NCBI GenBank assembly: GCA_017882885.1
Contig: JADGOQ010000008.1
Span: 1-22,183 of the forward strand
From: Actinomycetales bacterium
GTDB lineage: Bacteria > Actinomycetota > Actinomycetes > Actinomycetales > Actinomycetaceae
Direction: 5' to 3'
DNA length: 22,183 bases
Shown piece after piece: positions 1 through 22,183 of the stretch; positions within the stretch are counted from its first letter, which is position 1, and each line of letters opens with the position of its first letter. Below the pieces are notes generated by a model, which had not been told where the DNA came from, ran no database searches, and worked only from the letters and a program-made list of their open reading frames with translations. Both the position numbers and the translations under genes were made by a program.

Positions 1-686
1 CCCTGGCCGACGAGCTCGCCGCCGCTGGCGTCGCGGTGGTGCACTGCCCGGTGGTGCGGACGGAGCCGCTGCCGGTCACCGGCCTGGCGGACCACCTGGC
101 CTGGGTGGGCGACGACTGGCTGGTCGTCACCTCTCCGCGCACCGTGGACTTCCTCCTCGAATTCGCCACCCGGGAGGTTGTCCCGGCGGGGGCGCTCGCG
201 GCACCCCGGTGCGCCTGCGTGGGGGCGGCCACCGCCCGGGCCGCGCGGGCGGCGGGACTGCGCGTCGCCGTCGTCGGGGACGCCGACGCCGAGCGGCTCG
301 TGGAGCTGATGCCGGTGGCGGGGCCGTCGTCGCCCACGGACGTCCAGGTGCGCGCCCTACTCCCCGGATCGGCCCTCGCCCGCCCCGCCCTGGGCGAGGG
401 CCTGCGCGCGAAGGGGTACGACGTCCGCTCGCTGACGCTCTACCGGACCGTCAACGCGCCGCCGCCACCGGGCGCCCTCCAGCGAGCCGCGGAGTGCGAC
501 GCCGTCCTCGCCGCCGCGACCTCGCAGGTGGAGGCGTGGGTGGAGCTTGGCGGGCCGCGCGACGTCCGGTGGATCGCGATGGGCCGACCGACGGCGTCCG
601 CGATCCGCCGCCACGGCATGTCGTGCGTGGTCGCCCCGCACCCCACCGCCGCGGGCCTTCTCACCGCACTGAAGGAGCTGCCATGA
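1..686 (+). CDS. hemD: Uroporphyrinogen-III synthase (HemD), 5' end truncated by window edge
   Basis: ORF 36..686 translates to a HemD-like sequence ([14 protein letters not shown]...). The reading frame stays open back to nt 3 ([14 protein letters not shown]), so the true start lies upstream of the window. The stop overlaps the hemB start (ATGA at 683-686). Synteny is hemD-hemB-hemL. Confidence 0.7.
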
Positions 687-1648
687 TCCGCCCCCGCCGA
701 CTCCGCTCCACGCCGGCCATGCGCCGCCTGGTCCGGGAGACCCACCTCCATCCCGGGGCGCTCATCCAGCCGCTCTTCGTCAAGGAGGGGCTGGCGGAGC
801 CGCACCCAATCCCCTCGTTGCCAGGGATGGTGCAGCACACCACCGAGTCGCTGCTGGCGGCGGTGCGCGCGGCGGTCGACGCCGGCGTGGGCGGGGTGAT
901 GCTGTTCGGCATCCCGGCGGAGCGGGATCCGGAGGGCTCCGCGGCGCTGGATCCGGACGGGGTGCTGAACACCGCACTCCGTGCCGTGCGGGCCGAGGTG
1001 GGCGACGAGCTGGTGGTGATGGCCGACCTCTGCCTCGACGAGTTCACCTCCCACGGGCACTGCGGGGTGCTGAATGAACGCGGCGCCGTGGCCAACGACG
1101 CCACGCTGGAGATCTACGCCGCGATGGGGGTGGAACTGGCCCGGGCGGGAGCCCACGTCGTGGGGCCGAGCGGCATGATGGACGGCCAGGTGGCCGCGAT
1201 CCGGCGGGCGTTGGACCGTGCGGGGCACGTGGACGTCGCGATCCTTGCCTACGCCGCCAAGTACGCCTCGGCGTTCTACGGCCCGTTCAGGGACGCCGTC
1301 GACAGTTGCCTGCGGGGGGACCGGCGCACCTACCAGATGGACCCGGCCAACCGGCGGGAAGCGCGGCGCGAGGTGGAGCTGGACATCGCCGAGGGCGCGG
1401 ACATCGTGATGGTCAAGCCCGCGCTGTCCTACCTCGACGTGGTGGCGGATGTGGCCGCCACATCCCCGGTGCCGGTGGCCGCCTACCAGGTGAGCGGGGA
1501 GTACGCGATGGTGGAGGCCGCCGCCGCGAACGGCTGGATCGAGCGGGAGGCTGCGATCGCGGAGTCGCTGGTCTCGATCCGCCGCGCGGGGGCGGACATG
1601 ATCCTGACCTACTGGGCCACCGAGGTGGCGGAAGGACTGCGTGGCTGA
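683..1648 (+). CDS. hemB: Porphobilinogen synthase (delta-aminolevulinic acid dehydratase, HemB)
   Basis: Translation from ATG 683: [36 protein letters not shown]... followed by [18 protein letters not shown], a classic HemB N-terminus and active-site region. The ATG lies inside ORF-track ORF 209..1648, whose N-terminal Arg/Gly-rich extension looks spurious. ATGA overlap with the hemD stop. Product is 321 aa. Confidence 0.9.
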
Positions 1649-3017
1649 CGTGACGATGGAGGGCAACACGACAATGGATGGCTACACGACAATGGAGGCG
1701 CTCTTCGACCGGGCGCGGGCGGCGATCCCGGGCGGCGTGTCCTCACCGGTGCGGGCCTTCGGCTCGGTCGGGGGAACCCCGAGGTTCATCGCCTCCGCAC
1801 GCGGCCCATACGTCACCGACACCGACGGCGTCGAGCGGGTGGACCTCGTGGGCTCCTGGGGTCCGGCGTTGCTGGGGCACGCCCACCACGTGGTGGTGGA
1901 GGCCGTCCGGGAAGCGGCGGGGCGCGGGCTCAGCTTCGGGGCGCCCACGACCGCGGAGGTCGAGTTGGCCGAGATGGTGCGGGCACGGGTGCCGGCGGCG
2001 GAGCTCGTGCGCTTCGTGTCCTCCGGCACCGAGGCGACCATGACGGCGATCCGGCTCGCCCGCGCGGCCACCGGCCGGGACCTCGTGGTGAAGTTCGCCG
2101 GCTGTTACCACGGGCATGCGGACGCGCTGCTGGCCGAGGCCGGTTCCGGGGTCGCCACGGCATCGTTGCCGGGCTCCGCCGGAGTCACGGCCGCCACCGT
2201 GGCGCAGACCCTCGTGCTGCCGTACAACGACCCCGCGGCACTCGCGGCGGCGTTCGCGGAGCGCGGGGACGAGATCGCCTGCGTCATCACGGAGGCGGCA
2301 GGCGCGAACATGGGGGTCGTGGCCCCGCGAGCGGGCTTCAACGCAGCGATCCGCGAGCTGACGGCGCGGCACGGTGCGCTCATGATCAGCGACGAGGTCC
2401 TCACCGGTTTCCGGGTGTCCCCCGCCGGCTGGTTCGGCCTCGAGGGCGTGGTGCCCGACCTGCTCACCTTCGGGAAGGTCGTGGGCGGCGGCATGCCGCT
2501 CGCCGCCCTCGGTGGGCGCGCCGACCTCATGACCCGGCTGGCACCGCTGGGGCCGGTGTACCAGGCGGGCACCCTCTCGGGGAACCCGCTCTCCACTGCC
2601 GCCGGGATTGCCACGCTGCGATTGGCCGACGACGCGGTGTACGCCCACATCAATGAGGCAGCCGCCGTGATCGGGCGGGCCACCAGTGCGGCACTGGCAG
2701 CGGCGGGCATGCCGCACACCCTGCAGCGCGCCGGGAACCTCTTCTCCGTCATGTTCGGCGAACTCGCGGACACGTCCGGTCCGCACGGGCCGTGGGGTGC
2801 GGGCACGGTGGCGGACTACGCGGGCGCCAAGGCCCAGGAGGGCTGGCGGTACCCGGCGTTCTTCCACGCGATGCTCGACGCGGGCGTGGCTCTGCCCCCG
2901 AGTGTCTTCGAGGCGTGGTTCGTCTCCGTGGCGCACGACGACGACGCCGTCGGACGGGTGCTCGAGGCGCTTCCCGGGGCGGCCCGTGCGGCCGCGGAGG
3001 CTCAGCCGCCGAGCTGA
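1641..3017 (+). CDS. hemL: Glutamate-1-semialdehyde 2,1-aminomutase (HemL)
   Basis: [32 protein letters not shown]...[19 protein letters not shown] is a canonical HemL N-terminus, with PLP aminotransferase class-III features throughout. The start is ambiguous: GTG 1641 (GGAAGGA SD 4 nt upstream, 8-nt overlap with hemB), ATG 1656, ATG 1674 or ATG 1692. The conserved core begins at 1692. Confidence 0.88.
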
Positions 3018-4390
3018 GCCAGGACCGCCGCGGCGGCGGCCTGGCCCGAGGTGACGCAGTCGGGCAGCCCCACCCCGCGGTAGCTCGCGCCGGCGAGCTG
3101 CCACCGGGGCCGATCCGCGAGTGCCGCATCGATGGTTGCGAGGCGGTCCTTGTGGCCGACCGTGTACTTCGGCATGAGGCCGTCCCACCGCGCGATTCGC
3201 CGGAGGATCGGGGACTCGCCCGCTCCGAACGTCTCGGCGATGTCGCGCTCGACCGCGGCGTACACCTCGTTGTCAGGCCGCTGGTGGAGCGCCCGCGACC
3301 GCTCAGGGAGGAAGGACCGGATCAGGACGGTGCGGTCCGGGGCGCGGCCCGCCCACTTGCCGGAAGTGACGGTGCACCCGCTGGAGGGGCTGCGAGGTGT
3401 CCTGCCCGTTCCGGCGTCAAGGAAGCCATGCCCCACGGGTGGAGTCGGGAACGCCTCGGCGCGATACCCGAGGGACACGACGGCGGTCGAGGCGTGCGGG
3501 ATGGCACGCAGGGCGACCGCTGCGGCCGGTCGCTCCCCCTCGACCATCGCGGCGGTCGTGGGAGAGGGCGTGGCGAGGACGACGGCGTCGGCCACCAGCA
3601 CCTCCCCGGAGGCGAGGCGGAGGTGGGACCGTCCGGCGTCGTCGGTGGTGAGGGACACGGCGGCGACGCCGAGCCGCTCCACATACCCCGCTTCGGCACG
3701 GAGGTGGGCCATGAGGGCGTCGATGAGGTCGCCGAGCCCGCCACGCAGGGTGCGGAACGGGGATCCGGCGCCCTTGGGTGCCTTCCGGCCTGCCTTGAGG
3801 CTGGCGAGGATGAGGCTGCGGCTCTCGTCCTCGTAGGCCCGCAACATGGGCAGAACGGCGTCCAGGCTGAGCTCCTCGATCGAGGTGCCATAGATGCCGC
3901 CGATCAGGGGGTCGGCGAGACGCTCGATGATCGCGGGGCCGAGGCGGTGGCGCAGGAACTGCCCGATCGCCATGTCCTCCGGGCCGAGGTACCGCGGGAG
4001 GAGGACGTCGAGGCCGGCGTGGAGCTTCTGCGGCCAGGTGAAGAGGCGGGTGCGCACGAACGGGCCGAGGCGGGTGGGGAGCACCAGGCCCATTCCCTCC
4101 GGCATGGCGACCATCTCGCCGTCTCGCCGGAGGTACACGATCCGCGGCTCGGTGACGGAGATGATGTCATTCCCGAGGCCGAACCGACTGGCCAGTGCGG
4201 CTGCGGCGGGGCGGTAGGAGACGAAGGAGTCCGGCCCGTGCTCGACCAAGAAGCCGTCCACGTGCTCGGTGCGGATCTTGCCGCCCGCCTGGGGCGCGGC
4301 GTCGACCAACGTGACCTCGACCCCCGCGTCCACCAGGTCGACGGCGGCGGCCAGCCCCGTGACGCCCGCCCCGACAACGACTGCCCTCAC
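3002..4390 (-). CDS. hemY: Coproporphyrinogen/protoporphyrinogen oxidase (CgoX/HemY, FAD-dependent)
   Basis: N-terminal dinucleotide-binding motif [56 protein letters not shown] is typical of HemY/CgoX. The start is taken as GTG 4390, which overlaps the upstream rSAM stop (GTGA) and has a GGAGG SD 8 nt upstream. The ORF-track start at 4501 adds 37 implausible residues. Product is 462 aa. The 3' end overlaps hemL convergently by 16 nt. Confidence 0.85.
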
Positions 4391-5481
4391 CCGGCCGCCT
4401 CCACGAGCTTCGCGTACGCCGGGGGGACGTAGGTGCAGAACGGGTCCTCTGCGAGGGGATCCCCGAAGGCGGCATACGCCCGCGCCCGCGACCCGCCGCA
4501 CATCTGCTGGTACTGGCAGTGGTGGCAGCGGCCACCGAACTGCCTCGGGTCGTGGAGGGACCGGAAGAGGGATGCGGTGCGGTAGACGTCCACCAGGCTG
4601 TCGGTGCGGACGTCCCCGACGGGGAGCGGCAGGAACCCGGCTGGGCAGATCTCCCCGAGGTGCGAGACGAAAACGACGCCGTGCCCGTCCCGGACCCCGA
4701 AGCTCCGCATGATCGGGCTGCGGCGGATCTCCTCCGGAGAAACACCCTCCTCACGCAGGACCTCCACGGCAACTCGACGGTAGGAGGGCGCCTCTGTGGT
4801 GGCGACGACGAATGGTGCGCGCCTGGACGTCCGGTGGACCCACCGCATGAGCTCCTCCCCGTCCTCGGGTGGGAGTGGCTCCAGGACAGTGCCCCGGCCC
4901 ACCGAGATGAGGAAGAACAGGCTCCACCGTGCCAGACCGCGCGGTTCCAGCAGCTCGTAGACCGCCGGGATATCCGGAGCCGTCTCGGCGGTGACGAGGG
5001 TGTTCACCTGCAACGGGAGTCCGAGCTCCTGTGCCCAGCCGATCGCGTCCAACGTGCGTCCGAATGTCCCCAGGACTCCGCGGATGGCGTCGTGACGCGC
5101 GGCAGTGGAGCCGTCGAGGCTCAAGCCGAGGCCGGAGACCCCGTGGTCCCGCAGCCGCTCGAGGACGTCCCGGGTCAGAGCTTCGGTGGCCGCGGGCGTG
5201 ATGGACACGCTGATGCCGAGACGCCGCGCCTCGTCGACCAACTCGAGGAGGTCGGGCCGCTCGAGAGGGTCCCCCCCGGTGAGGATCAGGGTGGGCATCG
5301 GGTCACCGAACTGGGGGATCTGGCGCAGGAGGGCGATGCTCTCCTCGTGGGTGAGCTGGCCTGGGTGTGCGTGCGGCATCGCTGCGGCGCGGCAGTGGCG
5401 GCACGCGAGCGCGCAGGCCTGCGTCATCTCCCAGTAGATGTTCAACGGGGTCAGCGAGTAGTCGCGGGGGGCGTGTCTCAC
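4387..5481 (-). CDS. Radical SAM protein with C-terminal SPASM domain (TIGR04053-like/AhbD-like; possible anaerobic heme-pathway enzyme)
   Basis: CxxxCxxC motif (CALACRHC) sits 16 aa from a GTG start. A C-terminal Cys-rich SPASM region follows (CPAGF...CHHCQYQQMCGGSRARAYAAFGDPLAEDPFC). Translationally coupled (GTGA) to the downstream hemY. Confidence 0.85.
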   Translation of the reverse strand: MRHAPRDYSLTPLNIYWEMTQACALACRHCRAAAMPHAHPGQLTHEESIALLRQIPQFGDPMPTLILTGGDPLERPDLLELVDEARRLGISVSITPAATEALTRDVLERLRDHGVSGLGLSLDGSTAARHDAIRGVLGTFGRTLDAIGWAQELGLPLQVNTLVTAETAPDIPAVYELLEPRGLARWSLFFLISVGRGTVLEPLPPEDGEELMRWVHRTSRRAPFVVATTEAPSYRRVAVEVLREEGVSPEEIRRSPIMRSFGVRDGHGVVFVSHLGEICPAGFLPLPVGDVRTDSLVDVYRTASLFRSLHDPRQFGGRCHHCQYQQMCGGSRARAYAAFGDPLAEDPFCTYVPPAYAKLVEAAG

Positions 5482-16245: not shown

Positions 16246-16440
16246 TCACTCCTTGGGCGGGCGGCCACGCCTAGGCAGGGGTCCGGCGTCGCGGGGGGCG
16301 CGGCCCGCCTTGCGGAGCGCCTCCCGCAGCAGCATCTCCACCTGGGCGTTGACGGAGCGCATGTCGTCGGCCGCCCATTTCGCGACGGCGTCGTGAATGG
16401 CCGGGTCGAGCCGCAGCAGGATCGCCTTGCGTTCCGCCAT
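16246..16440 (-). CDS. Arc/MetJ-type ribbon-helix-helix DNA-binding protein
   Basis: 64 aa. ILLRLDPAIHDAVAKWAADDMRSVNAQVEMLLREALRKAG fits the RHH beta-alpha-alpha pattern of Arc-family proteins. Strong SD (GGAGGTGG) precedes ATG 16440. It lies 31 nt downstream of the SPFH gene on the same strand. Confidence 0.65.
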   Translation of the reverse strand: MAERKAILLRLDPAIHDAVAKWAADDMRSVNAQVEMLLREALRKAGRAPRDAGPLPRRGRPPKE

Positions 16441-16471
16441 CAGCCACCTCCCGCCGTCGCCGCGGCATCCC

Positions 16472-17503
16472 TCACGTGTAGAGCGAGCCGGCGTTCACCA
16501 CAGGGGTGACCCGCGAGTCGCTGGTGAGGACAACGAGGAGGTTGGAGACCATGGCCGCCTTGCGCTCGTCGTCGAGCTCGACGATCTGGTCCCTGTCGAG
16601 CCGCTCGAGCGCCTTCTGCACCATGGTGACCGCGCCCTCCACGATCTTCTCGCGGGCCGCGATGATCGCCGTGGCCTGCTGGCGCTGCAGCATGGCCTGG
16701 GCGATCTCGGGGGCGTAGGCCAGGGACGAGATGCGCGTCTCCACCACCTCGAGGCCGGCGAGCACGATCCGCGCCGCCACCTCGGCCGCGAGTTCCTGCG
16801 CCACGAGCTCGGTGGAGCCGCGGAGCGTCTCCTCGCCGGGGCCGGCGTTGTCGTAGGGGTGCGAGGTGGCGACGTGCCGCAGCGCGGACTCGGGCTGGAC
16901 GGCGACGAACTTGTCGTACTCCTCGACGGCGAAGACCGACTTGGCCGTGTCCGCCACCTGCCACACCACGATGGCCGCGATGTTGACGGGATTGCCGTCG
17001 GCGTCGTTGACCTTGAGCTCGTTGGTCTCGAAGTTGCGGACCTTGACCGAGACCTTCTTCTTGGTGGTGAACGGCACCGTCATGAGGAGACCGGTCTTGC
17101 GGATGGTGCCGATGTAGCGGCCGAAGAATTGCACCACCTTGGTGTCTCCGGGGCTGATGATCGTGAGGCTCGAGAACATCACCATCGCCACGAGGAAGAG
17201 CAGGCCGCCCAGCAACCCCGAGGGGGCAGGGTTACCGACTCCCGAGTCTGCGGCGACGGCCGCGCGGATGATCAGCCAGACCGAGAGCCCGGTCAGTACC
17301 AGTGCGACGAAGAACGCGAGCAGGCCGCTCACGTACCAGGCCTTCTTCTCGGCGATGTCCACGCGGGTCCCCTGGCGGCCCACGGGCCGGCCGGCGGGCG
17401 CCCCGCCGACGGATTCGCCTTCGGTATCGGTGTCCGGATGGGGCACCTGGGTGCCTGGGACCGGGAGTCCGTGCGCCGGTCCGGGTGCCTGTTGGTTGCT
17501 CAC
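16472..17503 (-). CDS. SPFH/band-7 (stomatin/prohibitin-like) membrane protein
   Basis: An N-terminal TM segment ([24 protein letters not shown]) is followed by an SPFH domain ([24 protein letters not shown]...) and a coiled-coil C-terminus. The start is taken as GTG 17503 with a GGAAGGA SD 7 nt upstream. ORF-track starts 17722 and 17551 are rejected because the codons there (ATA, TTA, TAT, CAA) are rare in this genome. Confidence 0.8.
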
Positions 17504-18978: not shown

Positions 18979-19674
18979 TCAGAGGGTCGAGCCGTACCCC
19001 GCGACACCCCGCGGCGCCACACCCAGGTGGTTCTCCACCCTTCTCACTCCGGGGGTGTTCTCGGCGGCCACCTCCGCGGCGTTCTTCTCCTTCTGGCTCT
19101 CCACCAGCCCCCACAGCTCGACAACACCATCGGAGACGACGACGTTGATGGGCGAGAACTGGTCCCCGAGAACGGACTCGATCTCTTTCAGGATGGACTC
19201 GCGGATGGCCTTGTCATCGCCGGCGACCACGGACTCGCGTGCCTGTGCGGACACCGCGCGCAGGACGTCGGTCCGCGTCACGATCCCCACCAGCGTCCCG
19301 CCGCGCACGACGGGCACCACCTTGATGTTGTGCTCGCGAATCAGCTTGCCCACCGCCTCCAGCGGGGTGTCCTCCGCGACGGTGAACGGCTTCGGCGTCA
19401 TGACCTCCAGTGCCGTGCGGCCGTGGGACTTGACGTAGTCGCCCGCAAGGTCGGCGCCGGAGGGGACCGTCCTCCGCCACCACGACCTGCGCCCTGCTTC
19501 GTCGACCCGGCGCACCAGGTCTCCCTCGGTCACGACTCCGATGACCCTCTGCTCGGCGTCCACCACCGGAACTCCGTTGAGGTGGTTGTCGAGGAGCGTC
19601 TTGATGATTTCCTTGACTTCGGTGTCTGGGCCAATCGTGATCACGTTCGTGGTCATGACGTCAGATGCTTCCAC
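18979..19674 (-). CDS. CBS-domain pair protein with C-terminal BON domain
   Basis: Two CBS motifs (VMTTNVITIGPDTEVKEIIKTLLDNHLNGVPVVD and VMTPKPFTVAEDTPLEAVGKLIREHNIKVVPVV) are followed by a BON-like C-terminus (INVVVSDGVVELWGLVESQKEKNAAEVAAENTPGVRRVEN). GTG start 19674 with a GGGAGG SD 7 nt upstream. Confidence 0.85.
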   Translation of the reverse strand: MEASDVMTTNVITIGPDTEVKEIIKTLLDNHLNGVPVVDAEQRVIGVVTEGDLVRRVDEAGRRSWWRRTVPSGADLAGDYVKSHGRTALEVMTPKPFTVAEDTPLEAVGKLIREHNIKVVPVVRGGTLVGIVTRTDVLRAVSAQARESVVAGDDKAIRESILKEIESVLGDQFSPINVVVSDGVVELWGLVESQKEKNAAEVAAENTPGVRRVENHLGVAPRGVAGYGSTL

Positions 19675-19885: not shown

Positions 19886-20815
19886 GTGGGCCACGACCAC
19901 GGCCACCCCCAGTCGGGGCACGCCCACGCCGCCACCCCCCGCAAGCGCCTCGCGATCGCCTTCACGATCACGTTCGCGATCCTGCTCGCCGAGGTGGTGG
20001 GCGCGTGGTTGACCGGCAGCCTCGCCCTCCTCGTGGACGCCGGCCACATGCTCACCGACGCCGGCGGGCTGCTCCTGGCGTTGGTGGCCGCCACCCTCGC
20101 CCTGCGGCCCGCCACGACCCGCCACACGTGGGGATTCCGCCGCGCCGAGGTGCTCGCGGCCGGAGCTCAGGCCACCGTCCTGCTCGCGGTCGGCACCTAC
20201 GCCTTCGTCGAGGGAATCCAGCGCCTCGCCACGCCGCCCGAGGTGAGCTCCGCGGAACTGCTGGCGTTCGGCGTGATCGGCATGGTCGGAAACGTCGCCT
20301 CGGCGCTGGTCCTCGCCGGCGGCCGGTCCGCGAACCTGAATATGCGCGCGGCGTTCCTCGAGGTGGTCAATGACGCGCTCGGGTCGGCGGCGGTGATCGC
20401 CTCCGCCGTCGTCATCGCCACGACGGGCTGGACGCGGGCCGACGCCGTCGCCGGCATGGTCATCAGTGTCCTGATCGTCCCGCGCGCGCTCGCGATCCTG
20501 CGGGAGGCGGGCAGCGTGCTGCTGGAGTCGACCCCCCGCGGCCTGGACCTCGACGAGGTGCGGCGGCACATCATGGAGTTGCCGCACGTCGTCGGGGTGC
20601 ACGACCTGCACGCCTCCACGATCGCCTCCGGCCTGCCGGTGCTCTCGGCGCACGTGGTGCTCGATGACTCATGCTTCACGGACGGCCACGCCCCGGAGAT
20701 GCTGGACGAGTTGCAGGACTGCGTGGCCGAGCACTTCGACGTCAGCGTGGCGCACTCGACGTTCCAGTTCGAGCGGGCCAAGCACGCGGACCACGAGCGG
20801 GACGCGCACCAGTAG
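19886..20815 (+). CDS. Cation diffusion facilitator (CDF) family metal efflux transporter (CzcD/ZitB-like)
   Basis: His-rich N-terminus (GHDHGHPQSGHAHAA). Six TM helices with CDF signatures (LAIAFTITFAILLAEVVGAWLTGSLALLVDAGHMLTDAGGLL; HTWGFRRAEVLAA). A C-terminal cytoplasmic domain follows. The start is taken as GTG 19886 after an AGGAGGG SD; the ORF-track N-terminal extension from 19772 is unlikely. Confidence 0.85.
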   Translation: MGHDHGHPQSGHAHAATPRKRLAIAFTITFAILLAEVVGAWLTGSLALLVDAGHMLTDAGGLLLALVAATLALRPATTRHTWGFRRAEVLAAGAQATVLLAVGTYAFVEGIQRLATPPEVSSAELLAFGVIGMVGNVASALVLAGGRSANLNMRAAFLEVVNDALGSAAVIASAVVIATTGWTRADAVAGMVISVLIVPRALAILREAGSVLLESTPRGLDLDEVRRHIMELPHVVGVHDLHASTIASGLPVLSAHVVLDDSCFTDGHAPEMLDELQDCVAEHFDVSVAHSTFQFERAKHADHERDAHQ

Positions 20816-20821
20816 GCCGTG

Positions 20822-21064
20822 TCAGATCCTGGCCCTCAGGTAGGTGAGCACGTCCCGCAGGGTGACAAGCCCGGCGTAGTCGGCCTCCGGGATGTCGACA
20901 GCCAGGTCCTGGTGCAGGCCGATCAGGAAGGTCAGCCAGTCCAGCGAGTCGAGGTCCACCTGGGTGCGGAGTGGTTTGGTGTCCCGCAGGTCGTCGTCCT
21001 CCACCTCGGGTGCGACCCGCTTCAACGCGGCGATGACGGTCGCCCGCAGTTCGTCGTCGGTCAT
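20822..21064 (-). CDS. Acyl carrier protein (standalone, phosphopantetheine-binding)
   Basis: 80 aa with the PPant attachment motif VDLDSLDWLTFLIGL (DSL serine). ATG 21064 overlaps the stop of the upstream E2 gene (ATGA). Confidence 0.75.
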   Translation of the reverse strand: MTDDELRATVIAALKRVAPEVEDDDLRDTKPLRTQVDLDSLDWLTFLIGLHQDLAVDIPEADYAGLVTLRDVLTYLRARI

Positions 21065-22183
21065 GACAGTCCCTTTCCACCCTCCGTGGCCGGCTTGTCG
21101 AGGTCCTCAGGCCGTTGTAGCCAGTCGCGCAGGGCGGCCAGGAAGAGTGCCCCACGGTGTCCGTCGGACACGCGGTGGTCGGCGGCGAGGCTGGCGGTGA
21201 CCACCGGCGCGACGCCGAGCACGCCGTCGTCGACCCAGGGCCGGACGGCGATCCGGCCGAAACCGACGATCGCGACCTGCGGCGGATAGATGACGGCGTG
21301 GACGGCCTCGACGCCCTGGTCGCCGAGGTTGGTGACGGTGATGGTGGGGTCGGACAGCTCCGAGCTCTTCAGGGACCCGGAGCGCACCCGCCGCACGAGG
21401 TCGGTGAGGTCGGCCATGAGCTCGCTGAGGCTCTTGTCGCCGACGTCGTGGATCGCCGGCGCGACCAGCCCGCCCTGCCGCAGCGAGATGGCGACGCCGA
21501 CGTGCGCCGCCCTGACCGGCTCGAACGCGCCGTCCCGGAAGAAGCCGTTCAGCTCCGGGAAGTCGGTGAGCGCCAGCGCCACCGCCTTCAGTTGCACCAC
21601 CGCCATCAGCAGCCGGTCGGTGATCGGGCGTGCGGCATTGGCGGCGGTCAGCCAGTCCACTGCCCGGCCCATCGGGACCGGCTCGGAGAGGTAGTAGTGC
21701 GGGATCTCGCGCTTCGAGCGGCTCATCGCGGCCGCGATGGCCTGCCGCATCGCGGCCTGCCGGTCACCGCCCGCGGGTTCGAGGGGCGGAGGTGATTCGG
21801 CGGGCGGGGTGGCGGCCGCTGCCCGAGTGGCGACCGCAGCGTCGACGTCGGCGAGCGTGACCGCGCCGCCGGGGCCGCTGCCGACGACGGCGCCCACGTC
21901 GACGCCGAGCTTCTCGGCGCGTTTGCGCGCGGCCGGCGAGACGAGCGGCCGGGGCCGGAGCCTCGCCGAGCACCTCGCCCGGCTCGAGCAGTGTCGCCAT
22001 GACCTCGCCCACCGGGATCTTCTCCCCGACCTCGGTGATCAGCTCCTGGACCGTGCCCTCGAACCAGATCTCGACCTCGATGGCGGCCTTGGAGGTGTCG
22101 ACGACTGCCACCACTTGGCCCTTCGTCACGTGGTCGCCGGGCTGCACGAGCCACTCGAGGAGTTTGCCCTCGTCCATGTCGGC
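21061..22183 (-). CDS. 2-oxoacid dehydrogenase E2-type acyltransferase (lipoyl domain, subunit-binding domain, catalytic domain); 5' end beyond window; apparent frameshift in linker
   Basis: The frame ending at 21061 encodes the peripheral subunit-binding domain (SPAARKRAEKLGVDVGAVVGSGPGGAVTLADV) and a catalytic domain with DHRVSDGHRGALFLAAL (the DHRxxDG active site). A different frame (ORF 21764..22177, open to the window edge) encodes a lipoyl domain (GDHVTKGQVVAVVDTSKAAIEVEIWFEGTV...) that then runs into Arg-rich out-of-frame residues. The two frames must be joined in the Ala/Pro linker around 21930-21970. Confidence 0.7.

What the first reader, a model, noticed from the sequence alone, without database searches (positions are those of the whole stretch)
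20822..22183. E2-type lipoyl acyltransferase translationally coupled to a standalone ACP
A 2-oxoacid dehydrogenase E2 (lipoyl domain, subunit-binding domain and a DHRxxDG catalytic domain) ends in an ATGA overlap with an 80-aa ACP carrying a DSL phosphopantetheine site. Canonical E2s transfer the acyl group to CoA and are not paired with an ACP. An E2 coupled to an ACP is the signature of specialised systems in which a lipoyl-bound acyl or hydroxyethyl unit is delivered onto a carrier protein. The glycolicacyl-ACP extender-unit pathway of quinocarcin/naphthyridinomycin-type clusters is one example. The E1 partners would lie beyond the right edge of the window.
Basis: partly seen in the sequence, partly recalled or inferred. 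Interest (0 to 1): 0.6.

Follow-up and report, generated by a model that had tools for sequence, protein, structure and literature searches.

The report
PDH-type E2 with dedicated carrier protein
The E2 and small carrier-protein genes are the tail of a five-gene unit (acetate-activating ligase, pyruvate-dehydrogenase E1 alpha and beta, E2, carrier protein) that is widespread, moves between phyla, often sits among low-oxygen stress genes, and that I found described in no paper.

Summary
On the minus strand, an E2 (lipoyl domain, E3-binding domain, DHRVSDG catalytic domain) ends in an ATGA overlap with an 80-aa carrier protein (DLDSLD). There are two caveats. The E2 runs off the window edge, losing 10 aa. 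It also carries a 50-bp, frame-breaking deletion in its Ala/Pro linker that six near-identical contigs lack.

Those contigs show what lies to the right: an AcsA-type acetate-CoA ligase, PDH-type E1 alpha and E1 beta, E2 and ACP, all tightly coupled. The same five genes in the same order occur in 79 of 80 species-level genomes retrieved (Betaproteobacteria, Mycobacterium, Nitrospira, Pseudomonas and others) and on 13 plasmids. No other neighbour is conserved, and no PKS, NRPS or FabH gene is conserved beside it. The flanks are often dormancy-type genes (USP, HSP20, CBS, phosphoribosyltransferase, nitroreductase).

So the ACP is an integral partner, but this is not a quinocarcin-like natural-product pathway. 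My best reading, which is inferred and not shown, is that the ACP carries acetyl groups between E2 and the ligase. That would give a self-contained pyruvate/acetate thioester module used under oxygen limitation. The main rival is an accessory PDH plus Acs that both make acetyl-CoA. It is a new variant of a known kind and is uncharacterised.

The parts
20822..21064 (-). Carrier protein (ACP) gene, 80 aa, with the phosphopantetheine-attachment serine in DLDSLD (Ser40). It is the last gene of the operon and converges on a cation-efflux gene that ends at 20815.
   Evidence: Translation. Pfam PP-binding 28.8 bits. It falls below every NCBIfam housekeeping-ACP cut-off, with a best score of 29 against 70 bits. 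AlphaFold model pLDDT 92.3. Foldseek TM 0.89 to holo-PfACP. The Ser, IAPE and IPE.DY motifs are invariant or nearly so across the family.
21061..21064 (-). ATGA overlap between the E2 stop codon (TGA) and the ACP start codon (ATG), implying translational coupling.
   Evidence: The + strand reads 'tcat' at 21061-21064. The same 4-nt overlap is seen in 25 of about 82 homologous loci.
21070..21085 (-). Purine-rich Shine-Dalgarno-like stretch (GGAGGGTGGAAAGGGA on the minus strand) inside the 3' end of the E2, 5-20 nt upstream of the ACP start.
   Evidence: Read directly from the sequence. Not tested further.
21061..21944 (-). E2 peripheral-subunit (E3/E1) binding domain and acyltransferase catalytic domain, with DHRVSDG and the TITVTNLG Thr. 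It is in the same frame as the E2 stop codon.
   Evidence: Translation. Pfam E3_binding 43.7 bits and 2-oxoacid_dh 191.3 bits. The closest solved structures are PDH E2 cores, with human DLAT at 197 bits against 81-92 bits for BCKDH E2. The catalytic His and Asp are invariant in alignment A1.
21945..21954 (-). Junction of a 50-bp deletion in the Ala/Pro linker. It is the single remaining copy of the direct repeat CCCGGCCGC. The deletion shifts the lipoyl domain out of frame with the rest of the E2.
   Evidence: Pairwise alignment with L003-L008 shows a 50-nt gap in the window only. The sequences are shown.
21955..22183 (-). E2 lipoyl domain with the lipoyl-lysine in VDTSKAA. It is in a different frame from the catalytic part and is cut by the window edge, losing its first 10 residues.
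   Evidence: Translation. Pfam Biotin_lipoyl 56.1 bits. Compared with the intact 400-aa P0001. The Lys is invariant in A1.

Best explanation
Shown.
- The E2 and ACP are the last two genes of a conserved, self-contained and horizontally mobile five-gene operon.
- The gene order is: AcsA-type acetate-activating ligase, PDH-type E1 alpha, E1 beta, E2 (lipoyl + E3/E1-binding + acetyltransferase) and a dedicated ACP.
- The operon carries no E3, phosphopantetheinyl transferase or acyl-consuming enzyme of its own. It must therefore rely on housekeeping E3, PPTase and lipoylation.

Inferred mechanism.
1. E1 alpha/beta decarboxylates pyruvate and reductively acetylates the lipoyl arm of the E2.
2. The E2 transfers the acetyl group to the phosphopantetheine thiol of the dedicated ACP, which is chemically the same arm as in CoA.
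3. The AcsA-type ligase interconverts that acetyl thioester with free acetate and ATP or AMP + PPi.
4. The ACP would thus be a tethered acetyl carrier linking the only two acetyl-thioester enzymes in the operon.

The one linear route that uses all five proteins without any outside specialised partner is pyruvate + NAD+ + AMP + PPi -> acetate + CO2 + NADH + ATP. Because the module so often sits among dormancy/hypoxia-type genes, I propose it supports survival metabolism under oxygen limitation. In this particular window the E2 is frame-shifted, so the local copy may be inactive or mis-assembled.
For: Module identity:
- Near-identical contigs give the order ligase (588 aa), E1 alpha (327 aa), E1 beta (323 aa), E2 (400 aa), ACP (80 aa). 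Three junctions overlap by 4-8 nt and one has a 2-nt gap.
- The ligase passes NF003313 acetate-CoA ligase at 929 bits (cut-off 729). E1 alpha passes TIGR03182 PDH at 447 bits (cut-off 394). E1 beta passes NF006667 at 385 bits (cut-off 321).
- The ligase is closest to B. subtilis-type AcsA (PDB 9g79, 563 bits). It keeps the acetate-pocket motif DNWWQTETG in 73 of 75 copies and the catalytic SGK[IVL]MRR lysine in 74 of 75.
- The E2 keeps the lipoyl Lys, the PSBD and the catalytic His and Asp.

Conservation and mobility:
- The five genes occur in the same order in 79 of 80 genomes across at least four phyla.
- The window's actinobacterial E2 is 72-73% identical to copies labelled Azospira and Azonexus, but only 55-62% identical to the copies in Mycobacterium and Mycolicibacterium genomes.
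- The cassette is on 13 plasmids, including a conjugative Desulfotalea plasmid where a lipoate-protein ligase gene follows the ACP.
- No other neighbour is conserved.
- The ACP family has its own invariant motifs and fails the housekeeping-ACP models.

Context:
- Genes for USP, HSP20, CBS, phosphoribosyltransferase, nitroreductase, PNPOx, hibernation factor and a GAF kinase lie within +/-8 kb in 32 of 59 long loci.
- Eight slow-growing Mycobacterium loci carry a DosR-box-like palindrome upstream of acsA.
- Flavoprotein genes are inserted inside the operon in several Betaproteobacteria.

Precedents:
- An E2-type domain loads an ACP in QncN/L/M and SclQ1-4 (PMC6335953).
- An AMP-forming Acs runs physiologically in the ATP-forming direction in Syntrophus (PMC4992975, PMC13404658).
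Against: - No experiment or structure shows that this E2 or this ligase uses the ACP rather than CoA.
- The ligase passes a curated acetate-CoA ligase model and keeps the Arg that contacts the 3'-phosphate of CoA (S. enterica R584 = R538 here; role from PMC10455477). That fits continued use of CoA.
- The one ligase peculiarity I found, Leu in place of the A8 Arg (S. enterica R526) in 75 of 75 copies, is shared by more distant relatives and is therefore not cassette-specific.
- A PDH step makes NADH, which is awkward under hypoxia unless a sink exists.
- The hypoxia link is by neighbourhood only. It is strongest within one mycobacterial lineage (shared synteny), is seen in about half of the long loci, and has no DosR-like box in the window's own organism.
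- The reverse Acs reaction is near equilibrium or slightly uphill under standard conditions (general knowledge).
Confidence: 0.4

Rival explanations
1. An accessory PDH plus an acetyl-CoA synthetase. E1/E2 and AcsA each make ordinary acetyl-CoA (from pyruvate and from acetate) as an acetyl-CoA supply island, for example for storage lipid or PHA synthesis under stress. The ACP has a side role, or takes acetyl from acetyl-CoA.
For: The curated models name the genes acetate-CoA ligase and pyruvate dehydrogenase E1. The ligase keeps the CoA 3'-phosphate Arg. The E2 catalytic residues and PSBD are canonical. Hypoxia loci such as lxa contain acetate and PHA genes (PMC3721108).
Against: It gives the ACP no role, yet the ACP is kept in 79 of 79 testable loci across phyla, is often translationally coupled to the E2, and has family-specific invariant motifs. 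The E2 falls well below the PDH E2 equivalog cut-off, at 217 against 445 bits. The hosts are expected to have a housekeeping PDH already (general knowledge; not checked genome-wide here).
Confidence: 0.3
2. An acetyl-ACP primer supply. Both the E2 (from pyruvate) and the ligase (from acetate) load acetyl onto the ACP. An unlinked host enzyme, such as a ketosynthase or acyltransferase for stress lipids, then consumes it.
For: Both enzymes handle acetyl units and the ACP is the only extra thiol in the operon. E2-to-ACP transfer has a precedent (PMC6335953).
Against: No ketosynthase or acyltransferase is conserved nearby. The cassette moves between phyla and onto plasmids, so it would need a universal consumer able to recognise a divergent ACP that fails the housekeeping-ACP models.
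Confidence: 0.15
3. A Qnc/Scl-like C2 extender-unit pathway. The E1 takes a two-carbon unit from a ketose phosphate, the E2 makes glycolicacyl-S-ACP, and an NRPS or PKS uses it.
For: The domain inventory matches SclQ1-4: ThDP protein, Pyr/TK_C protein, lipoyl + acyltransferase protein and ACP (PMC6335953).
Against: No NRPS or PKS family recurs in the flanks of the loci examined. The E1 subunits pass the pyruvate-dehydrogenase models. The operon has an acetate-type ligase with the small-acid Trp pocket. Its context is chromosomal stress islands and plasmids.
Confidence: 0.04
4. The ACP serves lipoylation. It would carry octanoyl (or lipoyl) groups to modify the cassette's own E2 in hosts or conditions where the normal supply is lacking.
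For: Octanoyl-ACP is the normal lipoylation donor (PMC9307952). The Desulfotalea plasmid adds a lipoate-protein ligase gene right after the ACP.
Against: The only ligase in the operon has the acetate-size pocket, WW in 73 of 75 copies, so nothing here could load a C8 acid. No LipB or LipA gene is conserved nearby. LplA uses free lipoate, not acyl-ACP (general knowledge).
Confidence: 0.05

Closest known systems
QncN/QncL/QncM (quinocarcin) and SclQ1-4 (scleric acid) glycolicacyl-ACP systems
   Same: They have a ThDP-dependent E1-like pair, a lipoyl + acyltransferase E2 module and a small dedicated ACP encoded together. An E2-type domain hands a lipoyl-bound C2 acyl group to the ACP instead of CoA (PMC6335953).
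   Different: Those systems sit inside NRPS clusters and use ketose phosphates. Here no NRPS or PKS family recurs nearby, the E1 subunits pass the pyruvate-dehydrogenase models, the E2 keeps an E3/E1-binding domain, an AcsA-type ligase is an obligatory fifth gene, and the context is stress islands and plasmids. Sequence relatedness to QncL could not be tested because I had no QncL sequence.
Heterotetrameric-E1 pyruvate dehydrogenase complex (pdhA-pdhB-pdhC-lpd of Gram-positive, alphaproteobacterial and mitochondrial type)
   Same: E1 alpha and E1 beta pass the curated PDH models. The E2 has lipoyl, PSBD and catalytic domains with the canonical His and Asp, and its closest solved structures are PDH E2 cores.
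   Different: There is no E3 gene. The E2 scores about half the PDH E2 equivalog cut-off. The operon always carries an ACP and an acetate ligase, and it is accessory and mobile.
AMP-forming acetyl-CoA synthetase, B. subtilis AcsA type (NF003313/PRK04319), including Acs enzymes that run towards ATP (Syntrophus Acs1)
   Same: The ligase scores 929 bits to the family model and 563 bits to the solved AcsA. It has the acetate-pocket Trp, the catalytic Lys and the R584-equivalent Arg. The reverse, ATP-forming physiological use is documented (PMC4992975, PMC13404658).
   Different: It is always operon-linked to E1/E2/ACP. It has Leu at the A8 Arg position in 75 of 75 copies, a feature shared with a wider subclade. 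The thiol substrate is unknown.
Hypoxia/dormancy gene islands (mycobacterial DosR regulon; Burkholderia cenocepacia lxa locus)
   Same: The flanks repeatedly hold USP, alpha-crystallin HSP20, CBS, phosphoribosyltransferase, nitroreductase, hibernation-factor and GAF-kinase/response-regulator genes. The lxa locus likewise bundles such genes with acetate-forming enzymes (AckA, Pta) (PMC3721108).
   Different: The main text of the lxa paper does not mention such a cassette in B. cenocepacia J2315, and to my recollection M. tuberculosis lacks it. Regulation by oxygen has not been tested for any copy.

Membership tests
2-oxoacid dehydrogenase E2 (dihydrolipoamide acyltransferase) | N-terminal lipoyl domain with the lipoyl-lysine | tested here: met
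   Biotin_lipoyl 56.1 bits. VDTSKAA, with the Lys invariant in 20 family members.
2-oxoacid dehydrogenase E2 (dihydrolipoamide acyltransferase) | Peripheral-subunit (E3/E1) binding domain | tested here: met
   E3_binding 43.7 bits. The SPAAR motif is invariant.
2-oxoacid dehydrogenase E2 (dihydrolipoamide acyltransferase) | Catalytic domain with DHRxxDG His/Asp and an active-site Ser/Thr | tested here: met
   2-oxoacid_dh 191.3 bits. DHRVSDG and TVTNLG are invariant.
2-oxoacid dehydrogenase E2 (dihydrolipoamide acyltransferase) | All domains in one intact reading frame in this window | tested here: not met
   A 50-bp deletion at about 21945-21954 puts the lipoyl domain out of frame. Six of six near-identical contigs are intact. 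The N-terminus is also cut by the window edge.
Pyruvate dehydrogenase complex (acetyl-transferring) | E1 alpha and E1 beta reach the curated PDH model cut-offs | tested here: met
   TIGR03182 447.4 bits (cut-off 393.9). NF006667 384.8 bits (cut-off 321). Both were tested on the near-identical contig L003.
Pyruvate dehydrogenase complex (acetyl-transferring) | E2 reaches a curated PDH E2 equivalog cut-off | tested here: not met
   The best score is TIGR01349 at 217 bits against a cut-off of 445.
Pyruvate dehydrogenase complex (acetyl-transferring) | E3 (dihydrolipoamide dehydrogenase) encoded with the complex | tested here: not met
   No E3 gene is called in the loci with gene calls (L003-L012), and no extra neighbour family is conserved. 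A housekeeping E3 is presumably used.
Pyruvate dehydrogenase complex (acetyl-transferring) | Acetyl group is delivered to CoA | not testable with these tools
   This needs an enzyme assay comparing CoA with holo-ACP.
Acyl carrier protein (PP-binding) | PP-binding profile match, four-helix fold, and a conserved Ser at the start of helix II | tested here: met
   PF00550 28.8 bits. Model pLDDT 92.3 with helix II starting at Ser40. TM 0.89 to holo-PfACP. The Ser is invariant.
Housekeeping fatty-acid-synthesis ACP (AcpP/AcpM equivalogs) | Reaches the NCBIfam equivalog cut-offs | tested here: not met
   The best score is 29.1 bits against 70; AcpM scores 22 against 146.
QncN/L/M - SclQ1-4 glycolicacyl-ACP system | E1-like ThDP pair + lipoyl/acyltransferase + ACP encoded together | tested here: met
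   Gene order in L003 and in 79 other loci. Domain list from PMC6335953.
QncN/L/M - SclQ1-4 glycolicacyl-ACP system | Embedded in an NRPS/PKS cluster that consumes the acyl-ACP | tested here: not met
   No NRPS or PKS gene is called in the loci with gene calls, and no such family recurs in the flanks of 82 loci clustered.
QncN/L/M - SclQ1-4 glycolicacyl-ACP system | Ketose-phosphate donor, glycolicacyl product | not testable with these tools
   The E1 subunits pass the PDH models, which argues for pyruvate, but specificity needs an assay.
QncN/L/M - SclQ1-4 glycolicacyl-ACP system | E2 groups phylogenetically with QncL/SclQ4 | not tested
   The QncL and SclQ sequences could not be obtained with the tools.
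AcsA-type acetate-CoA ligase (NF003313) | Reaches the curated cut-off; acetate-pocket Trp; catalytic Lys | tested here: met
   928.8 bits against 729. DNWWQTETG in 73 of 75 copies and the SGK[IVL]MRR lysine in 74 of 75.
AcsA-type acetate-CoA ligase (NF003313) | The three conserved Arg residues used for CoA binding and thioester formation (S. enterica R191, R526, R584; PMC10455477) | tested here: inconclusive
   The R584 equivalent is present. R191 probably corresponds to R163, but the loop alignment is uncertain. R526 is Leu in 75 of 75 copies, and Leu also occurs in more distant relatives.
Hypoxia/dormancy regulon (DosR- or lxa-type) | Clustered with hallmark regulon genes | tested here: inconclusive
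   Seen in 32 of 59 long loci: Actinomycetota 18 of 23, Betaproteobacteria 13 of 30. The mycobacterial cases share ancestry. There is no formal background control.
Hypoxia/dormancy regulon (DosR- or lxa-type) | Regulator binding site upstream, or induction by low oxygen | tested here: inconclusive
   A DosR-box-like palindrome occurs upstream of acsA in 8 orthologous Mycobacterium loci and a ninth, weaker match in an actinobacterial MAG (L077). None occurs in the window's organism. Expression is not testable here.

The most novel reading that the evidence does not exclude
The cassette encodes a CoA-independent 'pyruvate-to-acetate' energy module. A PDH-type E1/E2 passes acetyl from its lipoyl arm to a second swinging arm, the dedicated ACP. 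An AcsA-type ligase, running in reverse, then converts acetyl-S-ACP + AMP + PPi to acetate + ATP. This would give non-growing, oxygen-starved bacteria substrate-level phosphorylation from a portable five-gene unit. The frequently adjacent phosphoribosyltransferases, which release PPi (general biochemistry), and the operon-inserted flavoproteins might supply PPi or AMP and re-oxidise the lipoyl arm, but that is pure speculation.
Probability: 0.15. Interest if true: 0.85.

Novelty: new variant of a known kind. Interest (0 to 1): 0.6.

Why it matters
Pyruvate dehydrogenase complexes are textbook CoA-dependent machines. A widespread version that is always sold as a package with its own carrier protein and an acetate ligase would add a new way of handling acetyl units.

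The package is common. It occurs in 79 of the 80 best species-level genome matches, on megaplasmids and a conjugative plasmid, and its ACP family has thousands of sequence clusters in metagenomes. Carriers include environmental and opportunistic mycobacteria, Burkholderia and Cupriavidus relatives, wastewater Rhodocyclaceae and Nitrospira.

Its repeated placement among dormancy-type genes makes a concrete hypothesis testable: that it supports survival without oxygen. The test needs five proteins and a knockout. Current annotation hides the unit behind five generic names (acetate-CoA ligase, pdhA, alpha-ketoacid dehydrogenase beta, dihydrolipoamide acetyltransferase family protein, acyl carrier protein).

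Tried and rejected
1. Ligase signature for ACP use. The conserved A8 Arg (S. enterica R526) is Leu in 75 of 75 cassette ligases, and the literature says this Arg matters for the thioester step (PMC10455477). However, a search of 50%-identity representatives showed Leu in 17 of 32 scorable relatives, some only 43-54% identical. I dropped it as evidence.

2. Conserved neighbours. Clustering all flank ORFs from 82 loci gave no family beyond the five genes in more than 12 loci. There is therefore no hidden sixth component and no conserved PKS, NRPS or FabH.

3. Distant ACP relatives in other contexts. The profile search saturated with close family members all named 'acyl carrier protein', which was uninformative.

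4. Fusions. I found no E2-ACP or ligase-ACP fusion. The one long ligase relative is an intein insertion.

5. Literature. I found no paper describing this cassette. The lxa-locus and micro-oxia Burkholderia papers do not mention it, and Gerasimova 2011 on DosR regulons was not held.

6. NCBIfam has no dedicated model for the ACP or the E2.

7. Phylogeny against QncL/SclQ4 was not possible because I had no sequences.

8. I did not attempt an analysis of E2 CoA-pocket residues. I had no reliable residue map and no access to model coordinates.

9. The matching contig length (39802 bp) of L004 and L077 is a coincidence. L077's proteins are only 55-74% identical.
Full report
**1. What is in the window**

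The window is 72% G+C. Its gene content looks like an ordinary actinobacterial chromosome: hemD, a class-III aminotransferase, an amine-oxidase-type flavoprotein, a radical-SAM protein, 3-methyladenine glycosylase, an ABC transporter pair, DUF222, MGMT, an MFS transporter, AlkZ-like, Band_7, DinB_2, CBS+BON and a cation-efflux protein.

An 80-aa ORF lies on the minus strand at 20822-21064. It reads MTDDELRATVIAALKRVAPEVEDDDLRDTKPLRTQVDLDSLDWLTFLIGLHQDLAVDIPEADYAGLVTLRDVLTYLRARI.
- It matches Pfam PP-binding at 28.8 bits.
- It folds in silico as a four-helix ACP with Ser40 at the N-terminus of helix II (pLDDT 92.3).
- It superposes on holo-PfACP at TM 0.89.

Directly upstream and overlapping by ATGA (+ strand 'tcat', 21061-21064) is an E2. 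It has a lipoyl domain, an E3/E1-binding domain and a catalytic domain with DHRVSDG.

**2. Two caveats**

First, the E2 runs off the right edge and lacks 10 residues.

Second, the window's E2 is split between two reading frames. Six metagenomic contigs that are 99.3-99.8% identical to the window over this stretch all carry 50 extra bases in the Ala/Pro linker. In the window, the sequence between two copies of CCCGGCCGC has been lost. This is the signature of slippage or recombination between short repeats, or of an assembly collapse. As written, the local gene would produce a lipoyl domain detached from its catalytic core.

**3. What lies beyond the edge**

The near-identical contigs (L003-L008) show the operon:
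- an AMP-binding ligase (588 aa)
- E1 alpha (327 aa)
- E1 beta (323 aa)
- E2 (400 aa)
- ACP (80 aa)

Three junctions overlap by 4-8 nt and one has a 2-nt gap. The operon is convergent with the cation-efflux gene and divergent from a xanthine-dehydrogenase-like cluster.

| Protein | Curated model | Score (bits) | Cut-off (bits) | Result |
|---|---|---|---|---|
| Ligase | NF003313 acetate-CoA ligase | 929 | 729 | passes |
| E1 alpha | TIGR03182 PDH E1 alpha | 447 | 394 | passes |
| E1 beta | NF006667 PDH E1 beta | 385 | 321 | passes |
| E2 | TIGR01349 PDH E2 (best hit) | 217 | 445 | fails |
| ACP | best housekeeping-ACP model | 29 | 70 | fails |

The ligase is closest to the solved B. subtilis-type AcsA (563 bits). 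It keeps the small-acid pocket motif DNWWQTETG and the catalytic lysine. The E2's nearest solved relatives are PDH E2 cores, not BCKDH or OGDH E2.

**4. The five genes form a conserved, mobile unit**

E2 homologues at 65-76% identity to the window's protein come mostly from Rhodocyclaceae, not Actinobacteria. A scan of one genome per species with an E2 profile returned 80 loci. tblastn with the five proteins found ligase, E1 alpha, E1 beta, E2 and ACP in that order in 79 of them. The 80th contig ends inside the E2.

Carriers include:
- many Betaproteobacteria (Azoarcus, Rhodoferax, Curvibacter, Variovorax, Paraburkholderia, Sulfuritalea)
- Pseudomonas and Methylococcaceae
- a deltaproteobacterial MAG
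- Nitrospira
- Propionibacteriaceae
- many Mycobacterium and Mycolicibacterium species

The ligase search additionally found copies named as Thauera.

Further points on conservation and mobility:
- The E2-ACP junction is the same 4-nt overlap in 25 of about 82 loci, and the gap is at most 44 nt in nearly all the others.
- The ACPs share invariant IAPE, DLDS(M/L)D and IPE.DY motifs.
- A profile search finds thousands of 90%-identity clusters of this ACP, all named only 'acyl carrier protein'.
- Clustering every flank ORF from 82 loci found no further conserved neighbour. The next-best family is in 12 loci, reflecting mycobacterial synteny.
- The cassette is on 13 plasmids. These include Burkholderia, Paraburkholderia phymatum, Cupriavidus and Rhodococcus megaplasmids.
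- One is a conjugative Desulfotalea psychrophila plasmid, where a lipoate-protein ligase gene follows the ACP.
- The window's E2 is closer to betaproteobacterial copies than to those in Mycobacterium and Mycolicibacterium genomes, which indicates transfer between phyla.

**5. Context**

The flanks differ between loci but repeatedly contain dormancy/hypoxia-type genes.

| Locus | Organism | Neighbouring genes |
|---|---|---|
| L095 | Rhodococcus sp. DK17 pDK1 | USP, GAF sensor kinase + response regulator, pfkB, ppsA |
| L049 | M. europaeum | Rv2030c-like phosphoribosyltransferase/erythromycin-esterase protein, nitroreductase, Pyridox_ox_2, USP, S30AE hibernation factor, Band_7, flavodoxin |
| L090 | Nitrospira | HSP20, PRT, tandem USP |
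| L009 | Azoarcus sp. CIB | two HSP20 genes |
| L031 | Betaproteobacterial MAG | CBS protein just upstream of the ligase |
| L093 | Burkholderia plasmid | PRT, CBS, nicotinate PRT |

- Across the 59 loci of at least 15 kb, 32 have at least one such gene within +/-8 kb: Actinomycetota 18 of 23 and Betaproteobacteria 13 of 30.
- Eight slow-growing Mycobacterium loci carry CCAGGGTCCTTGGTCCCCAG, or a one- or two-base variant, 120-290 bp upstream of acsA.
- By my recollection this resembles published DosR boxes. The eight sites are orthologous, so they count as one event.
- Several Betaproteobacteria have flavoprotein genes inserted inside the operon: Flavodoxin_5, Flavodoxin_2, nitroreductase and PNPOx.
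- The window itself has a CBS+BON protein and Band_7 nearby.
- This evidence is circumstantial, and I had no background control set.

**6. Mechanism**

*Shown.* All catalytic elements for oxidative decarboxylation of a pyruvate-type 2-oxoacid, for acyl transfer from lipoyl to a thiol, and for adenylation of acetate are present and conserved. A carrier protein with an invariant attachment serine is always co-encoded.

*Inferred.*
- The two acetyl-thioester enzymes and the one extra thiol belong together, with the ACP carrying acetyl between the E2 and the ligase.
- The cassette is self-contained and moves between phyla, and its ACP is unlike housekeeping ACPs.
- An external, lineage-specific consumer of acetyl-ACP is therefore unlikely. 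A closed internal route is more parsimonious.
- The only linear route that uses all five proteins is pyruvate -> acetyl-lipoyl -> acetyl-ACP -> acetate, with ATP formed from AMP + PPi.
- AMP-forming Acs enzymes are known to run this way in Syntrophus (PMC4992975, PMC13404658).
- E2-to-ACP transfer is known from QncL/QncM and SclQ (PMC6335953).
- Hypoxia loci such as lxa carry the analogous AckA/Pta pair (PMC3721108).

*Against.*
- The ligase keeps the Arg that binds the 3'-phosphate of CoA (PMC10455477).
- Nothing excludes that both enzymes simply make acetyl-CoA.
- I rate the ACP-as-acetyl-shuttle model at about 0.4 and its ATP-forming version at about 0.15.
- The rivals are: plain accessory PDH + Acs about 0.3, acetyl-ACP primer supply about 0.15, lipoylation about 0.05, and Qnc-like about 0.04.

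**7. Comparison with the known, and novelty**

- The architecture resembles SclQ1-4 and QncN/L/M. It fails the defining context test (no NRPS) and has PDH-type E1 subunits, a PSBD and a ligase.
- It resembles a Gram-positive/mitochondrial-type PDH, but lacks E3 and always carries the ACP and the ligase.
- No NCBIfam model reached its cut-off for the ACP or the E2, and no paper I could search describes the unit (ten searches).
- I classify it as a new variant of a known kind: real, widespread and uncharacterised.
The natural-product example was not.

**8. Verdict**

Interest is 0.6, because a PDH obligatorily paired with its own carrier protein and an acetate ligase is unexpected and directly testable. 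The mechanism remains inferred, and the copy in this window may be defective.

Noticed in passing
window 21945-21954 (compare L003 10261-10310): There is a 50-bp deletion between two CCCGGCCGC direct repeats in the E2 Ala/Pro linker. It is present only in the window and absent from six near-identical contigs. It breaks the E2 reading frame.
   Followed up: partly
L061 4173-5388 and 6428-6992; L075 6456-7014; L088 6354-6945; L072 6248-6992; L035 7469-7949; L058 7499-7949: In several Betaproteobacteria, flavoprotein genes are inserted inside the cassette. Flavodoxin_5 or Flavodoxin_2 lies between E1 alpha and E1 beta, a flavodoxin plus a nitroreductase lie between the ligase and E1 alpha, and PNPOx lies between E1 beta and E2. 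They might re-oxidise the lipoyl arm, or might simply be co-regulated stress genes.
   Followed up: partly
L038, L049, L059, L064, L066, L070, L071, L076: 120-290 bp upstream of acsA: A conserved palindrome, CCAGGGTCCTTGGTCCCCAG (or a one- or two-base variant), resembles a DosR/DevR box in slow-growing Mycobacterium species. A ninth, weaker match occurs in L077. No such site lies upstream of the cassette in the window's own organism (L003).
   Followed up: partly
L094 9950-10960 (Desulfotalea psychrophila LSv54 large plasmid): A lipoate-protein ligase gene directly follows the ACP on a conjugative plasmid of a sulfate reducer. The cassette appears to travel with its own lipoylation enzyme there.
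   Followed up: no
window 18979-19674 (-), and roughly 16400-17500 (-): A CBS+BON domain protein lies two genes from the ACP, and a Band_7/SPFH protein lies further along (coordinates inferred from the L003 gene calls). Related CBS and Band_7 genes recur beside the cassette in other phyla (CBS in 12 loci, Band_7 in 7 of 86).
   Followed up: partly
window 36-5481: A group of tetrapyrrole-type genes is present: HemD (uroporphyrinogen-III synthase), a class-III aminotransferase (HemL-like), an amine-oxidase flavoprotein (protoporphyrinogen-oxidase-like) and a radical-SAM protein. They seem unrelated to the finding.
   Followed up: no
L003 5910-6275, L004 5686-6363, L007 1986-2573: The short-chain dehydrogenase gene just upstream of the ligase is called with different lengths (121, 225 and 195 aa) in near-identical contigs, and its Pfam match is split. 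It is probably a decaying gene, and it is not conserved in other carriers.
   Followed up: no
P0368 (949 aa, representative library): A relative of the cassette ligase carries an intein with a LAGLIDADG endonuclease domain inserted in the AMP-binding domain.
   Followed up: no
L009 1768-4554 (Azoarcus sp. CIB): About 1.7 kb upstream of the cassette, on the opposite strand, is a 928-aa protein with PP-binding, AMP-binding and PlsC-type acyltransferase domains (Aas-like). It is not conserved in other loci.
   Followed up: no
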